Source of the DNA: Giardia intestinalis
Taxonomy: Eukaryota
DNA length: 64,000 nt
NCBI GenBank assembly: GCA_000002435.2
Contig: CM018792.1
Reading direction: 5' to 3' (one strand)
Shown: positions 37,114 to 48,718 of the stretch, one piece after another
Numbering within the stretch: position 1 is the stretch's first letter
How the letters are laid out: each line of letters begins with the position of its first letter
The notes under the pieces: model-generated
The model's input: only the letters and a program-made list of their open reading frames with translations
Told to the model about the DNA's origin: nothing
Database searches by the model: none
Made by a program: the position numbers and the translations under genes

Positions 37114-39324
37114 ATGTTTGGCAGTTTTGTTCTCGCGGGGGTACTCGTCCAGATTGCATGGGCAGAAAAAGTAACAGAGCGCGCGGCTCAATGCGCAGAT
37201 AACACTAATTGCGCAGCAGAAGCATGCAACGTTCTGATCGGTGGTAAATTGTATTGCTCTCAATGTAACACAGGATTTGTTCCTATCAATGGACAATGTG
37301 CAGGCAAAGAAGATGCAAAAACCAAGTGTAAAGATACCGATGGAGGCGATACAGCTGATCAGACCTGTGGACAGTGCGCTGAGCAGACTTTCATGTACAA
37401 GGGCGGCTGTTACGAAGCAGCCCAGCAGCCCGGACAGACCATATGTCAGGCGGCAGAAAATGGAAAATGCACACAGGCTAAGGCTGGATACTTCGTGCCG
37501 CCGGGCGCAGACGCCTCTCACCAATCGGTCATACCGTGCGGAGACGAAGAGGAAATAACGGTTAAGAACGATAAAAAGTACAAGGGCGTAGTGCATTGTA
37601 CTCAGTGTAACGCTCCCGCAGAAGCAGCAGATGCTAACGCCAAGGCCGCCACATGTACTGCGTGCGGCGATAGCAAGATCGTCAAGACGGCCAAGGACCA
37701 AGCCACCTCCTGCGTGACAGAAAAAGAGTGCACGGATGCCCCAGGCTTCTTCGTTGATACGACGAGCGGTAAAAAATGCAGCAAGTGCGCTGAGACATGC
37801 AAGACCTGTAAGACCGAGGCTGCGAAGTGCACCTCCTGTAAGGACGACAAGCCGTACCTGAAGAAGGATGACGAGTCCACAACTGGCACGTGCGTTGACG
37901 CAAACGGCTGCCCGGCAACTCATTACGTTGATAAGGAAGCAAAGGAGTGCAACACCTGCGTTTCAGGAGGGACGGTGGACTGCACCACTTGTGAGAAAGG
38001 CGCCAACGGAGTGGTTTGTAAGACGTGTACGACTGGTACGAAGACCAAGTTTGGCCTTGGAAAGAAGTCATGCGTTGAGAACTGCCCCTCGAACTCCAGC
38101 GATGAAAAGACCCCTGGCACCTGTGAGTGCGTCGAGGGCTACGTTCCCGACGACGCGGGCACCGGGTGTACGAAGAAATCCGACCCCCAGTGCAACACCC
38201 CCGGCTGCAAGACGTGCAGTGATCCGAAGAAAGACAAGGAGGTGTGCACAGAATGCGAAGACCCCAAGGCCCTCACGCCCACGGGCCAGTGCATCGATAA
38301 CTGCGGAGATCTGGGAGGCTACTACGAGGGCACCAACGAGGGGGGCAAGAAGGCCTGCAAGAAGTGCGAGGTCGAGAACTGCCTCCTGTGCAATGGGCAG
38401 GGACAGTGCGAGACCTGCAAGGACGGGTACTACAAGAGCGGAGCCGCCTGTGCCAAGTGCGATACCTCGTGCAAGACGTGCGCGAACGGGAAGCCCAACG
38501 GGTGTACGAGCTGCGAGCCTAAGCAGGTCCTCAGCTACGAAGGGGAGGGCACGGGGACGTACAAACCAGAATGCAAGCCAGTGAGCGGCGGCAAGGATGG
38601 AACGTGCAAGAGCTGCGACCTGAGCATAGACGGGACAAGCTACTGTTCTGCCTGTAACGTGGGCACGGAGTATCCAGAGAACGGTGTGTGCGTCAAGAAG
38701 TCGGCCCGCACAGCCTCCTGCCAGGTCGAACCGAGCAATGGTGTGTGCGGGACATGTGCAAAGGGCTTCTTCCGCATGAACGGGGGCTGCTACGAAACGA
38801 CCAAACTCCCTGGAAAGAACGTCTGTGAGGAGGCAGCACCGACCGGCGATACCTGTCAGACTCCGGCCGACGGGTACAAACTGAATAACGGCGCGCTCAT
38901 CACTTGCTCGGCCGGATGTAAGACGTGCACCAGCCAGGACCAGTGCGACACGTGTAAGGCTGGATATGCTAAGACTGGCGGTAACACTAAGAAGTGCGTT
39001 CCCTGCGCCACTGGGTGCTCCGAGTGCAATGCGGACGACGCCACCAAGTGCACGGTGTGCGCTGCAGGGTACTACCTGTCCAAAGAAAAGTGCATAGCAT
39101 GCGACAAGAGCGACGGCGGATCCATCACCGGCGTCGCCAACTGCGCCAACTGCGCTCCCCCAACCAACAATAAAGGGCCTGTCCTCTGCTACCTCATACA
39201 GAACACCAACAGGAGCGGGCTTTCCACGGGGGCCATAGCGGGGATCTCCGTCGCTGTCATCGCTGTCGTGGGGGGCCTCGTGGGCTTCCTCTGCTGGTGG
39301 TTCATATGTAGAGGGAAGGCGTGA
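37114..39324 (+). CDS. vsp: variant-specific surface protein (VSP), intact: signal peptide + CXXC-rich ectodomain + TM + CRGKA
   Basis: The ATG at 37114 gives MFGSFVLAGVLVQIAWA, a signal peptide. Many CxxC and GGCY motifs follow. The C-terminus is GAIAGISVAVIAVVGGLVGFLCWWFICRGKA. Stop is TGA at 39322. The track ORF start at 36688 is a GTG read-through of non-coding DNA. Confidence 0.85.
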   Translation: MFGSFVLAGVLVQIAWAEKVTERAAQCADNTNCAAEACNVLIGGKLYCSQCNTGFVPINGQCAGKEDAKTKCKDTDGGDTADQTCGQCAEQTFMYKGGCYEAAQQPGQTICQAAENGKCTQAKAGYFVPPGADASHQSVIPCGDEEEITVKNDKKYKGVVHCTQCNAPAEAADANAKAATCTACGDSKIVKTAKDQATSCVTEKECTDAPGFFVDTTSGKKCSKCAETCKTCKTEAAKCTSCKDDKPYLKKDDESTTGTCVDANGCPATHYVDKEAKECNTCVSGGTVDCTTCEKGANGVVCKTCTTGTKTKFGLGKKSCVENCPSNSSDEKTPGTCECVEGYVPDDAGTGCTKKSDPQCNTPGCKTCSDPKKDKEVCTECEDPKALTPTGQCIDNCGDLGGYYEGTNEGGKKACKKCEVENCLLCNGQGQCETCKDGYYKSGAACAKCDTSCKTCANGKPNGCTSCEPKQVLSYEGEGTGTYKPECKPVSGGKDGTCKSCDLSIDGTSYCSACNVGTEYPENGVCVKKSARTASCQVEPSNGVCGTCAKGFFRMNGGCYETTKLPGKNVCEEAAPTGDTCQTPADGYKLNNGALITCSAGCKTCTSQDQCDTCKAGYAKTGGNTKKCVPCATGCSECNADDATKCTVCAAGYYLSKEKCIACDKSDGGSITGVANCANCAPPTNNKGPVLCYLIQNTNRSGLSTGAIAGISVAVIAVVGGLVGFLCWWFICRGKA

Positions 39325-39338
39325 CTTAGGTAGTGAAT
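39324..39338 (+). promoter_or_regulatory. VSP extended polyadenylation signal (ACTTAGGTAGTGAAT) overlapping stop codon
   Basis: Matches the Giardia VSP 3' consensus ACTYAGRTAGTRAAY. The same element recurs at 41157..41171, 42990..43004, 44889..44903, 46698..46712 and 48536..48550. Confidence 0.6.
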
Positions 39339-46851: not shown

Positions 46852-48531
46852 GTGACCCCTGGTGGGGAGTGCATACTGTGCCATGATGCCACGGGAGCGA
46901 ATGAGAACAAGGGAGTGGCTAATTGCCTCAAGTGCACGGCACCAGCTAATAGTCCAGGGGCTGCCACGTGTACTGAGTGCATGTCTGGCTTCTCAGGAGA
47001 CTCGTGTGCTACTCAATGCGGAGGAGACTGTGCCGCCTGTGATAAGAGTAACCAAAATCAGTGCACCTCTTGTAAGACTGGGAAGTACCTGAAAGAGAAT
47101 CAATGTGTGGAAAAAAGTGCATGTAACAACAATCACTACCCCGATGACACTAGCATGACCTGCGTCGCCTGTAGCACCATACAAGATTGCACAGCATGCA
47201 CAATGGACCAGTCCACGGGGAAGCCAAAGTGCACTAACTGCGGTGCCAGTAAGATCCCCAGGACGACTCTCGACGGAACCTCGACCTGCGTGACAAAAGG
47301 GTATGATCAGTGTCAAGGCACAGATAAGGAGCTGTTCATGAAGGAGGACCAATCGGCGTGCTTATTATGCGGAGACAATACTGAGGATACATCTGAGTCC
47401 AATAAAAACCAGGGAACTCCTAATTGCAAGACCTGTACCAAGACAGCATCCACTAAACCGGTCTGTGAGACGTGCAAGGATGGCTTCTTCTTTAATACTG
47501 GTGATAAGACATGTACAAACAAGTGCGATGCCACCTGCAAGACGTGCTCTGCTGCTACAGATGCTAACCGATGCTTAACTTGTATGCCCGGATACTTCCC
47601 CATCGATAGTACAGATCAACAAGGGAAGAAGTGCGTCCCATGCGATAGTGTGGACGACAAGGGTCGCGAAGGGTGCAGTGTCTGCTCTAACAATGGTGGA
47701 TTCAAGTGTACTGAATGTAAGGTGAACTATAAGAAGCAGTCCAATGGAGATGCAGGGGATGACTATACATGTGTGAAGACTTGTGAAGACCCCACGGCTT
47801 GTGGTGGGACCTCTGGCGCCTGCGATGCTATAGTAATCGACAATGATGGAGTAGAGCATCATTACTGTTCTTATTGTGGAAATCAAGGAGATGTACCAAT
47901 CAATGGTATATGCACCAGCTCACTTGCAAGTAATACCTGCGCCGATGGTGTCTGCAAGTCTTGTGCTCAAGGGTACTTTATGTATATGGGAGGGTGCTAT
48001 GATGTGTCGAAGGCTCCTGGTAGTCACATGTGCAAGAAAGCAGATAACAATGGGATATGCACAGAGGCGGCAAGTAATAGGTACTTCGTAGTCCCTGGGG
48101 CACAGACCACTGATCAGTCTGTATTAGCCTGTGGCAACCCCCTAGGCACACTAGTAGGCACTCAAGGTACCGCTAAGGCATACGTGGGGGTGGATGGCTG
48201 CTCACAGTGCACAGCCCCAGCAGGTCTGTCTGAGGGTGGCATGACCCCCGCTGTCTGTACCTCCTGTGACAATAGTAAGAAGCCCAACAAGGATGGCAGC
48301 GGGTGTGTGCTGTGCTCTGACACCAACTGCAAGAGCTGTGTGATGGACGGTGTGTGTGGGGAGTGCAACAGTGGCTTCAGTCTAGACAATGGTAAGTGTG
48401 TGTCCTCTGGCGCCAACAGGAGCGGGCTCAGCACGGGCGCCATCGCGGGGATCTCCGTGGCTGTCATCGCTGTCGTGGGGGGCCTCGTGGGCTTCCTCTG
48501 CTGGTGGTTCGTGTGTAGAGGGAAGGCGTAG
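46852..48531 (+). pseudogene. vsp: VSP cassette without ATG or signal peptide; 559-aa product identical to the 41311..42990 cassette
   Basis: Protein identical to the cassette at 41311. The DNA differs only by synonymous changes in the first ~80 nt and the last ~20 nt, and the stop is TAG rather than TGA. It is the terminal unit of the array. The poly(A) signal ACTTAGGTAGTAAAT is at 48536..48550. Confidence 0.55.
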
Positions 48532-48718
48532 ATGTACTTAGGTAGTAAATGCGTCGACCGTGTTCAAGCTGTCAGGTGTTGTGGCATATACTTGTGAAGC
48601 TCGTCTGGTACTGGGATTTATAGACTTCCATCTAATTACCACGAACAGATAAATTTCTAAAAAACTCGCCGCTTGGGACTTCGAGGCTTTTATTAGTTAG
48701 CTTAGGCATTTCTAGGCA

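What the first reader, a model, noticed from the sequence alone, without database searches (positions are those of the whole stretch)
37114..48551. Head-to-tail VSP array: one intact gene followed by five start-less, signal-peptide-less cassettes that keep complete 3' ends
Only the first unit (37114..39324) has an ATG plus a hydrophobic signal peptide. The next five units begin abruptly inside an ectodomain module, at either ICTAASDGVCTAC... or GGCYKTESQPG.... They have either no in-frame ATG or only a fortuitous ATG supplied by the conserved 3' flank of the preceding unit. Every unit nonetheless keeps the full TM anchor, the CRGKA tail and the ACTYAGRTAGTRAAY poly(A) element. A single expressible gene trailed by five promoter-less, 5'-truncated but 3'-intact paralogs resembles an archive of silent donor cassettes, as in VSG/vls/msp2-style systems. 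Giardia antigenic variation is generally thought to be epigenetic or RNA-based. A cassette archive feeding one expression-competent copy by gene conversion would therefore be mechanistically interesting. Alternatively the units may be transcribed by read-through and supply antisense or small-RNA substrates.
Basis: partly seen in the sequence, partly recalled or inferred. Interest (0 to 1): 0.75.

Follow-up and report, generated by a model that had tools for sequence, protein, structure and literature searches.

The report
Known Giardia pseudo-VSP linear array
This is a previously catalogued Giardia WB "linear array": one intact surface-antigen (VSP) gene followed by five start-less pseudo-VSP copies. 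The "silent donor cassette" idea for such arrays was published in 2010 and 2020, and my comparisons give no sign that these five copies feed the gene in front of them.

Summary
Window 37114-48551 is Giardia intestinalis WB chromosome 4: the intact VSP GL50803_00137606 (Inr CAATGTT, signal peptide) followed head-to-tail by five units. All five lack the Inr and a signal peptide, three also lack a usable ATG, and each keeps its TM anchor, CRGKA tail and extended poly(A) signal.

It is not new. The reference annotation already calls the five units pseudo-VSPs (GL50803_00114065, 00112009, 0050178-0050180). Adam et al. 2010 list this array (vsp92-94, 103-105) and proposed that downstream members are recombination cassettes. 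Xu et al. 2020 proposed the same for G. muris.

What my tests add:
- Three other assemblies (two A2, one E) have only the U1 ortholog at this site, so the five units look like an A1-lineage insertion through the conserved 3' end.
- The truncation point is shared with at least 136 other pseudo-VSPs genome-wide. It is a repeat-unit boundary, not five separate truncations.
- U1 is mosaic between isolates, but its WB-specific patch matches a dispersed full-length paralog, not the cassettes.
- Unit bodies are deeply diverged (dS about 1, dN/dS about 0.3) yet all open, with long identical tracts, which indicates ongoing recombination.
- Published strand-specific RNA-seq gives about zero sense reads for U2 and U3.

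The parts
37112..37118 (+). VSP initiator/Kozak-like element CAATGTT overlapping the U1 start codon
   Evidence: It is the only PyAATGTT in 35000-49000. The element is also present at the ERZ (A2-like) and P15 orthologs' start codons.
37114..39324 (+). U1: intact VSP GL50803_00137606 (vsp92, clade II), 736 aa, with signal peptide 37114-37164, TM anchor and CRGKA tail
   Evidence: Sense TPM is 14-102 in published RNA-seq. Orthologs sit at the same site in DH, ERZ28528424 and P15.
39206..39545 (+). 340-nt tract identical to 44771-45110. It spans the U1 3' end, spacer A and the first 221 nt of U2. Its left edge is the left boundary of the array-derived sequence.
   Evidence: Upstream of 39206, U1 follows the DH ortholog.
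39325..39405 (+). Spacer type A: extended poly(A) signal ACTTAGGTAGTGAAT, the fortuitous ATG at 39337, and (GTGATA)3 at 39347-39364
39406..41157 (+). U2: pseudo-VSP GL50803_00114065 (vsp93), open frame to CRGKA, no signal peptide
   Evidence: Sense TPM is 0-1.2.
41158..41223 (+). Spacer type B: poly(A) signal plus a ~10-nt repeat (AGTGGGTGAT x about 5), ending in stop codons
   Evidence: Homology to full-length VSPs starts at 41224.
41224..42990 (+). U3: pseudo-VSP GL50803_00112009 (vsp94), with no ATG before residue 74
   Evidence: Sense TPM is 0.
42991..43056 (+). Spacer type B
43057..44889 (+). U4: pseudo-VSP GL50803_0050178 (vsp103). Its last 119 nt are identical to those of U1.
44890..44970 (+). 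Spacer type A (identical to 39325-39405), with the fortuitous ATG at 44902
44971..46698 (+). U5: pseudo-VSP GL50803_0050179 (vsp104). Residues 12-129 match the full-length chromosome 3 VSP GL50803_00114674 at 113 of 118 positions.
46699..46764 (+). Spacer type B
46765..48531 (+). U6: pseudo-VSP GL50803_0050180 (vsp105). It has 1592 nt identical to U3. Its last ~15 nt, TAG stop and 3' flank are the ancestral ones of the resident gene.
48536..48550 (+). Ancestral extended poly(A) signal ACTTAGGTAGTAAAT. It is orthologous to the signal that follows the single VSP in DH, ERZ and P15.
34433..35152 (-). Left single-copy flank: tubulin-specific chaperone B, used as a synteny anchor
48719..49813 (+). 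Right single-copy flank: endonuclease/exonuclease/phosphatase-family gene, used as a synteny anchor

Best explanation
This is a pseudo-VSP 'linear array' of Giardia intestinalis WB chromosome 4. An ordinary, expression-competent clade-II VSP (U1) has five copies of a genome-wide array repeat unit attached to its conserved 3' end. The repeat unit is [conserved 3' 119 nt + extended poly(A) signal + G/T-rich microsatellite spacer + clade-I VSP body lacking the first ~280-320 nt].

Shown:
- The units lack an initiator, a usable start and a signal peptide.
- U2 and U3 give about no sense RNA in published data.
- The same 5' junction is shared by well over a hundred pseudo-VSPs elsewhere in the genome. 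The truncation was therefore inherited from a founder unit and spread by duplication, and did not arise five times here.
- Three other assemblies (two A2, one E) have only the U1 ortholog at this site. Its stop codon and 3' UTR are the ones now found after U6.

Inferred:
- The five units entered (or expanded) in the A1 lineage by homologous recombination within the conserved 3' segment. Possible routes are misaligned gap repair or unequal exchange against another array.
- After that came at least one very recent duplication (U3/U6) and homogenisation of the junction regions.
- Unit bodies are old (dS about 1) and carry the signature of purifying selection (dN/dS about 0.3), yet all are still open. 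They also share long identical tracts with each other, with other pseudo-VSPs and with at least one full-length VSP on another chromosome. I infer that they keep exchanging segments with the genome-wide clade-I VSP pool.
- On that reading the array is part of an evolutionary-time recombination reservoir (or by-product). It is not a dedicated archive for U1 and not the switch mechanism. Switching in Giardia is reported to be epigenetic or post-transcriptional.
For: Identity and annotation. The units are GL50803_00137606, 00114065, 00112009 and 0050178-80, corresponding to vsp92-94 and 103-105.

No initiator or signal peptide downstream.

Expression: sense TPM is 14-102 for U1, 1.2 or less for U2 and 0 for U3.

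Shared junction genome-wide: at least 136 pseudo-VSP entries begin TGGAGTG(A/T), as U3/U4/U6 do. At least 13 begin ATGCTGTACAGTGATAGTGATAGTG, as U2/U5 do.

Single VSP at the syntenic site: seen in DH, ERZ28528424 and P15. Alignment breakpoints fall at window ~39340 and ~48413, and the TAG stop plus ACTTAG(G/A)TAGTAAATGCGTCG flank is shared with U6.

Recombination footprints:
- Identical tracts of 340, 235, 307 and 1592 nt, where about 24-29 nt is expected by chance.
- The 11 U3/U6 differences in the 5' part of the unit all fall within nt 143-225, and six of them equal the U4 sequence.
- U5 matches GL50803_00114674 at 113 of 118 aa, with at least 78 nt identical.

Selection signature: pairwise dN/dS is 0.30-0.34 with dS of 0.86-1.09. 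In simulation, 2% neutral substitution breaks such an ORF in about 75% of trials and 5% breaks it in about 97%. Four independent bodies are nevertheless open.

Literature on the class.
Against: - The single-VSP state in DH, ERZ and P15 comes from 454 or short-read assemblies. Collapse of an array cannot be fully excluded, although three independent assemblies agree and none breaks at this point.
- The direction of every exchange is unknown.
- Open reading frames could also mean that the units are simply very young copies of functional genes.
- RNA data are available here only for U2 and U3, from two clones.
- Multi-mapping hides reads in U3/U6.
- A TSS-seq study lists a U2-like ORF on another scaffold as expressed.
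- I could not read most of the WB genome as DNA. Genome-wide statements therefore rest on supplementary tables that store only the first ~400 nt of each gene.
Confidence: 0.8

Rival explanations
1. Local donor archive: U2-U6 are silent cassettes that supply segments by gene conversion to the adjacent expression-competent U1, as in vls, msp2 or VSG mosaics.
For: - The architecture resembles such systems, and Adam et al. 2010 raised the same possibility.
- U1's last 119 nt are identical to the U4 3' end.
- U1 is demonstrably subject to segmental replacement between isolates.
Against: - U1's ectodomain has only background similarity to the cassettes (45-60% in 90-nt windows).
- U1 and the cassettes belong to different clades.
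- The WB-specific replaced block of U1 matches a dispersed full-length paralog at 95-100% (DH ESU37793.1, with WB P0143 matching at protein level). Other blocks match P0144, P0146, P0147 and P0152.
- The only shared tract is the TM/tail region, which has no antigenic consequence.
- Giardia has about 136 competent VSP genes rather than a single expression site.
Confidence: 0.05
2. Inert by-product: the units are discarded, decaying gene remnants created by sloppy recombination at the conserved 3' end, with no role.
For: - They have no start signals and no sense RNA.
- They are absent from the syntenic site in three other assemblies, so they are dispensable.
- Adam et al. offered this alternative.
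Against: - All four independent unit bodies are open over 575-611 codons. Only 2-5% neutral change would usually break them.
- Divergence between units carries a purifying-selection signature.
- Both points fit continued copying from, or exchange with, functional genes better than undisturbed decay. They would also fit very recent origin.
Confidence: 0.2
3. RNA source: the array is transcribed (read-through or antisense) to provide double-stranded or small-RNA substrates for the RNAi-like silencing of VSPs.
For: - Antisense TPM of 12-70 over U2 and 2.6-8.4 over U3 in strand-specific RNA-seq.
- An RNAi-type control of VSPs is described in the literature.
Against: - Sense reads are about zero, so there is no read-through from U1 and no sense partner for dsRNA at this locus.
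- Antisense TPM was normalised separately and cannot be compared with sense TPM.
- Most VSP genes show as much antisense as sense, or more.
- No Rfam family matches the region.
- In G. muris the pseudo-VSP arrays are essentially untranscribed.
Confidence: 0.1
4. Cryptically expressed genes: the units obtain a start and signal peptide through splicing, trans-splicing or another frame.
For: - Their ORFs are intact.
- A few pseudo-VSPs elsewhere have a signal peptide in another frame.
Against: - There is no Giardia intron 3' motif ([AC]CTRACACRCAG) at any unit start. The only GTATGT near U1 lies upstream of its ATG.
- No in-frame Met is followed by a hydrophobic stretch.
- Sense RNA is about zero.
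Confidence: 0.03

Closest known systems
G. intestinalis WB vsp 'linear arrays' / pseudo-VSP arrays (Adam et al. 2010, PMC2996952; Xu et al. 2020, PMC7000408; Rodriguez-Walker et al. 2022 preprint)
   Same: Everything that defines the class is present:
- head-to-tail units;
- short spacers (66-81 nt to the first homologous base, against a published mean of 60 nt and maximum of 241 nt);
- a first member with an Inr and a long upstream non-coding region;
- downstream clade-I members without an Inr, proper start or signal peptide, but with CRGKA and the extended poly(A) signal.

This very array is listed as vsp92-94 and 103-105 and is annotated as pVSP.
   Different: Nothing in kind. Details added here:
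- the syntenic single-gene state in A2 and E assemblies;
- the insertion boundaries inside the conserved 3' segment;
- the negative test for donation to U1.
G. muris telomere-adjacent pseudo-VSP arrays (Xu et al. 2020, PMC7641422)
   Same: - Tandem arrays of signal-peptide-less VSP copies.
- Untranscribed.
- Phylogenetic evidence of exchange with intact VSPs.
- Proposed as a gene-conversion reservoir.
   Different: - The G. muris arrays are telomere-adjacent, hold 5-23 genes and go with few intact VSPs.
- This array is chromosome-internal, between housekeeping genes, and is attached directly to an intact VSP.
Borrelia vls and Anaplasma msp2 silent-cassette systems
   Same: A contiguous array of start-less, open-frame cassettes lies next to an expressed paralog.
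   Different: - In those systems the cassettes are about 90% identical to the central region of one expression-site gene and convert it unidirectionally during infection.
- Here the cassettes share no ectodomain similarity with the adjacent gene.
- Giardia has many competent genes, and switching is reported to occur without DNA change.
Trypanosoma brucei VSG pseudogene arrays and mosaic VSG formation
   Same: A large silent archive that is mostly incomplete, with segmental exchange that creates mosaics.
   Different: - Many VSG archive members carry frameshifts or stops and must be copied into a telomeric expression site.
- Here all five units are open, and no expression site exists.

Membership tests
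Giardia VSP (functional gene) | Cys-rich CXXC ectodomain matching PF03302 | tested here: met
   All six units match PF03302, with E-values from 1e-141 (U1) to 1e-33.
Giardia VSP (functional gene) | C-terminal TM domain, CRGKA tail and extended poly(A) signal ACUUAGRUAGURAAY | tested here: met
   Present in all six units.
Giardia VSP (functional gene) | N-terminal signal peptide and PyAATGTT initiator at the start codon | tested here: not met
   Met by U1 only (37112 CAATGTT; Kyte-Doolittle score 2.54). U2-U6 have neither. The published annotation reached the same result with SignalP.
Pseudo-VSP linear array (Adam 2010; Xu 2020) | Two or more head-to-tail vsp units separated by short spacers (mean 60 nt, up to 241 nt) | tested here: met
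   Six units on the + strand, with 66-81 nt between each stop codon and the first homologous base.
Pseudo-VSP linear array (Adam 2010; Xu 2020) | The first member has an Inr and an extended upstream non-coding region. Downstream members lack an Inr, a proper start and a signal peptide. | tested here: met
   About 2 kb with no confirmed gene lies upstream of U1 (35153-37113).
Pseudo-VSP linear array (Adam 2010; Xu 2020) | Listed or annotated as such in the reference genome | tested here: met
   vsp92-94 are flagged LA with vsp92 first in the array, and vsp103-105 are flagged LA. The pVSP tags are GL50803_00114065, 00112009 and 0050178-80.
Silent-cassette gene-conversion archive (vls / msp2 type) | Cassettes are homologous to the variable region of the adjacent expressed gene | tested here: not met
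   There is no nucleotide similarity between U1 and U2-U6 outside the last 119 nt. Windowed best matches are 45-60%.
Silent-cassette gene-conversion archive (vls / msp2 type) | Segments in the expressed gene are traceable to the cassettes | tested here: not met
   U1's WB-specific block matches a dispersed paralog at 95-100% and the cassettes at 44-58%.
Silent-cassette gene-conversion archive (vls / msp2 type) | Unidirectional conversion during infection or switching | not testable with these tools
   This needs long-read DNA from switched clones.
Processed (retroposed) pseudogene | A 5'-truncated copy that ends in a poly(A) remnant at the cleavage site | tested here: not met
   The longest A-run within 90 nt after each stop codon is 2-3. 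The spacers are G/T-rich microsatellites.
Spliced or trans-spliced Giardia gene | GTATGT 5' splice site and a fused branch/acceptor motif [AC]CTRACACRCAG | tested here: not met
   There is no strict motif in 36500-48700, and no 5' splice site inside the U1 CDS.

The most novel reading that the evidence does not exclude
The open frames of all five units, despite deep divergence, may mean that array units are kept translatable by selection because they serve as donors. On this reading, tracts would be copied from pseudo-VSP arrays into full-length clade-I VSPs (such as GL50803_00114674) often enough, perhaps even during chronic infection, to create new antigens. That would be a DNA-level diversification layer on top of the epigenetic/RNA-based switching.
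Probability: 0.15. Interest if true: 0.65.

Novelty: already known. Interest (0 to 1): 0.2.

Why it matters
If pseudo-VSP arrays really act as donors, Giardia's antigen repertoire would be open-ended rather than fixed at about 136 genes. That would bear on vaccine design based on VSPs.

That question was posed in 2010 and again in 2020, so this locus does not raise it anew. This locus does offer a clean natural test case. The same chromosomal site exists with the array (A1/WB) and without it (A2 and E assemblies). The adjacent intact gene has well-resolved mosaic blocks whose donors can be traced.

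Tried and rejected
- Short-read (Logan) contigs carrying the right-flank gene all stop inside the conserved U6 3' end. They say nothing about array presence in other A1 isolates.
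- DNA for the WB paralogs P0026 and P0143 could not be fetched. I used protein alignments and the first ~400 nt stored in supplementary tables instead.
- Retroposition origin was rejected because there is no poly(A) remnant.
- Splicing or trans-splicing of an N-terminal exon was rejected. A weak GCTAACCAG occurs in type-B units only, is coding (AANQY) and lacks the Giardia consensus spacing.
- The Rfam scan of 34000-50000 gave no hits.
- The spacers contain no AT-rich initiator-like windows.
- A simple single-crossover integration of a circular five-unit segment does not fit. U1's whole conserved segment and almost all of U6's are both array-type. It would need later homogenisation, so misaligned gap repair or unequal exchange fits better.
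- TPM values for U4-U6 were not in the stored part of Table S9.
- I did not examine assemblage B at this locus.

Full report
**Source and identity**

The window is Giardia intestinalis WB (ATCC 50803), from the PacBio reference assembly.
- The product of 37114-39321 is exactly KAE8303950.1 / XP_001706652.2 'VSP' on a 2.76-Mb chromosome.
- The flanking genes are tubulin-specific chaperone B (34433-35152, minus strand) and an endonuclease/exonuclease/phosphatase-family protein (48719-49813).
- In that annotation the next protein accession after U1 is the EEP gene, so U2-U6 carry no protein.
- Supplementary tables of Rodriguez-Walker et al. give the locus tags on NC_051859.1 (chromosome 4). U1 is GL50803_00137606 (VSP). 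U2 is GL50803_00114065, U3 is GL50803_00112009, U4 is GL50803_0050178, U5 is GL50803_0050179 and U6 is GL50803_0050180. All five are annotated as pVSP.

**Checking the observation**

Six head-to-tail units lie on the + strand. Each ends ...GLVGFLCWWF(I/V)CRGKA* and is followed by ACTT(A/G)GGTAGT(G/A)AAT. All six match Pfam PF03302.

The only PyAATGTT initiator in 35000-49000 is at 37112, on U1's ATG. Only U1 has a hydrophobic leader (MFGSFVLAGVLVQIAWA). No in-frame Met in U2-U6 is followed by anything comparable.

There are two junction types.
- Type A (U2, U5) carries (GTGATA)3 and opens at ...FFMGGCYKTESQPG. The ATG inside the preceding AGTGAAT poly(A) signal is in frame, which gives the 606- and 598-aa 'ORFs'.
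- Type B (U3, U4, U6) carries about five copies of AGTGGGTGAT and ends in stop codons just before ICT(Q/A)ASDG.

Against full-length relatives the units lack about 105-125 residues.

**What is already published**

Adam et al. 2010 described 'linear arrays' that hold over half of WB vsp genes. In these arrays the first member has a long upstream region and an Inr, none of the downstream members has an Inr, and spacers average 60 bp. [quoted passage not shown]

Their Additional file 1 lists this array.
- vsp92 is GL50803_137606: clade II, first in the linear array, 852 aa in the old model.
- vsp93 is 114065, 606 aa. vsp94 is 112009, 516 aa.
- All three belong to GenBank AF236019 on chromosome 4.
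- vsp103 (409 aa), vsp104 (598 aa) and vsp105 (516 aa) match U4 read from Met203, the U5 ATG-ORF, and U6 read from Met74.

Xu et al. [quoted passage not shown] For G. muris the same group reported untranscribed pseudo-VSP arrays that 'engage in genetic exchange' with intact VSPs, and compared them with VSG and MSG archives.

**Internal anatomy**

- U3 and U6 are 99.3% identical, including 1592 consecutive identical bases.
- In the 5' part of the unit, the 11 U3/U6 differences all fall within unit nt 143-225, and six of them reproduce the U4 sequence.
- A 340-nt tract (39206-39545) that spans the U1 3' end, spacer A and the start of U2 is identical to 44771-45110. A 235-nt tract (41065-41299) is identical to 46606-46840.
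- U3 and U5 share 307 identical bases.
- With 78-85% background identity, the longest chance run would be about 24-29 nt.
- The unit bodies are anciently diverged by contrast. Pairwise dS is 0.86-1.09 and dN/dS is 0.30-0.34.
- In simulation, 2% random substitution breaks such an ORF in about 75% of trials and 5% breaks it in about 97%. The four independent bodies are all open.
- The units share one truncation junction yet differ by saturated synonymous divergence that carries a purifying-selection signature. This means the bodies were copied from, or keep exchanging with, translated genes. They did not diverge in place as dead DNA.

**The truncation point is a genome-wide repeat-unit boundary**

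In the stored part of the pseudogene table (S7) of Rodriguez-Walker et al., at least 136 pVSP sequences begin with TGGAGTG(A/T). That is the codon after the last spacer stop, exactly as in U3, U4 and U6. At least 13 begin ATGCTGTACAGTGATAGTGATAGTG, as U2 and U5 do. These entries lie on chromosomes 4 and 5 and on unplaced scaffolds.

The '5'-truncated but 3'-intact' pattern is therefore inherited from a founder unit that has been amplified. It is not five local events.

**Comparison between isolates**

The same TBCB ... EEP interval was recovered from three other assemblies: DH (assemblage A2), an independent A2-like SPAdes assembly (ERZ28528424) and P15 (assemblage E).
- Each has one full-length VSP there, which is the ortholog of U1.
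- Alignments to the window run up to about 39340 and resume at about 48413.
- Their stop codon and 3' flank (TAG ... ACTTAG(G/A)TAGTAAATGCGTCG) are those found after U6, not after U1.
- With E as the outgroup, the simplest reading is that about 9.3 kb (39206 to about 48515, five repeat units) was inserted in the A1 lineage by recombination within the conserved 3' segment.
- Caveat: these are 454 or short-read assemblies, so collapse cannot be strictly excluded.
- No protein more than 65% identical to U4 exists in any other annotated Giardia proteome that was searched.

**Direct test of 'the archive feeds U1'**

U1 is itself a mosaic relative to its orthologs.
- Blocks of 88-100% identity alternate with blocks of 44-63%.
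- In nt 781-990 the A2 isolates carry the replacement, because U1 resembles P15 there.
- In nt ~1435-1660 U1 carries the replacement, because DH and ERZ resemble P15 there.
- That WB-specific block is 95-100% identical to a DH paralog at a different locus (ESU37793.1, next to pyruvate kinase) and 93-97% identical at protein level to the full-length WB paralog P0143.
- Other blocks match P0144, P0146, P0147 or P0152 at 90-100%.
- The best match of any U1 window to U2-U6 is 45-60%, which is background. The exception is the last 119 nt (TM and tail), which are identical to those of U4.

U1 does undergo segmental conversion. Its partners are dispersed full-length clade-II paralogs, not the clade-I units behind it.

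**Exchange between units and competent genes elsewhere**

- U5 residues 12-129 match residues 103-220 of GL50803_00114674 at 113 of 118 positions. That gene is a full-length chromosome 3 VSP with a TAATGTT Inr and a signal peptide. At least 78 nt of DNA are identical, while the rest of the proteins are about 60% identical.
- The same segment occurs in many other pseudo-VSPs.
- Shorter tracts of 93% identity or more link every unit to various other VSPs.
- The direction of transfer cannot be told from these data.

**Expression**

Table S9 of the same preprint covers strand-specific RNA-seq of two WB clones (seven libraries, unique mapping).
- Sense TPM is 13.8-102.5 for U1, 0-1.19 for U2 and 0 for U3.
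- Antisense TPM, which was normalised separately, is 6-44 for U1, 12-70 for U2 and 2.6-8.4 for U3.
- There is therefore no read-through from U1 and no independent sense transcription of U2 or U3.
- Antisense reads exist, but antisense transcription is reported for most VSP genes.
- A TSS-seq study lists a U2-like ORF on another scaffold as expressed, so silence of all array units genome-wide is not proven.

**Other alternatives checked**

- No Giardia intron signals.
- No poly(A) remnant that would indicate retroposition.
- No Rfam family.
- No other VSP-like gene in the window.

**Verdict**

The donor-cassette hypothesis has been in print since 2010.

The best-supported picture has three parts:
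- a lineage-specific attachment of five genome-wide array repeat units to the conserved 3' end of an ordinary VSP;
- silence in the sense direction;
- participation in family-wide duplication and segmental exchange on an evolutionary time scale.

Whether that exchange is selected (a reservoir) or incidental remains open.

Noticed in passing
window 37114-39324, compared with L007:7516-9813, L010:10001-12205, L008:7632-9815 and L009:3-1130: The intact VSP U1 is a patchwork relative to its orthologs in A2 and E isolates. Its WB-specific block (nt ~1435-1660) is 95-100% identical to a DH paralog that lies next to pyruvate kinase on another contig. This is a clean, datable example of ectopic segmental conversion between full-length VSPs.
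   Followed up: yes
window 35153-37113: About 2 kb of GC-rich (about 57%) sequence upstream of U1 has no confirmed gene. It contains long spurious ORFs on both strands, including an in-frame extension that produced the old 852-aa model of U1. It is conserved in DH and ERZ (about 93-95%) and only patchily in P15. One assembly calls a 180-aa minus-strand ORF there with no Pfam hit.
   Followed up: partly
window 38068-39744 (-) and similar ORFs across every unit: Long antisense ORFs (up to 558 aa) run opposite the VSP frames. They are most likely a by-product of the biased codon composition of VSP genes. Published RNA-seq does show antisense reads over U2 and U3.
   Followed up: partly
outside the window, same chromosome (GL50803_0050181 / GL50803_0050182, NC_051859.1): The next VSP along the chromosome is a 1602-aa repeat-containing intact VSP followed by a pseudo-VSP. 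The first 150 nt of that pseudo-VSP combine the U4-type start with the U6-type patch, and the rest of the ~400 nt stored for it reads like U3/U6. It is a third member of the U3/U6 lineage in a second 'intact gene plus pseudo-VSP' arrangement.
   Followed up: partly
window 49810-51420 (-): A 536-aa Cys-rich membrane protein (Ephrin_rec_like hit, not a VSP, no CRGKA) overlaps the 3' end of the EEP gene by 4 nt. Some A1-type short-read assemblies (L005, L006) call a 507-aa version of it and a 206-aa rather than 228-aa neighbour, which suggests indel polymorphism.
   Followed up: no
window 41179-41228, 43014-43056, 46720-46769; 39347-39364, 44912-44929: The inter-unit spacers are G/T-rich micro- or minisatellites (AGTGGGTGAT x4-5, or GTGATA x3) with no similarity to VSP 5' coding sequence. 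Their origin and any role in recombination are unexplained.
   Followed up: partly
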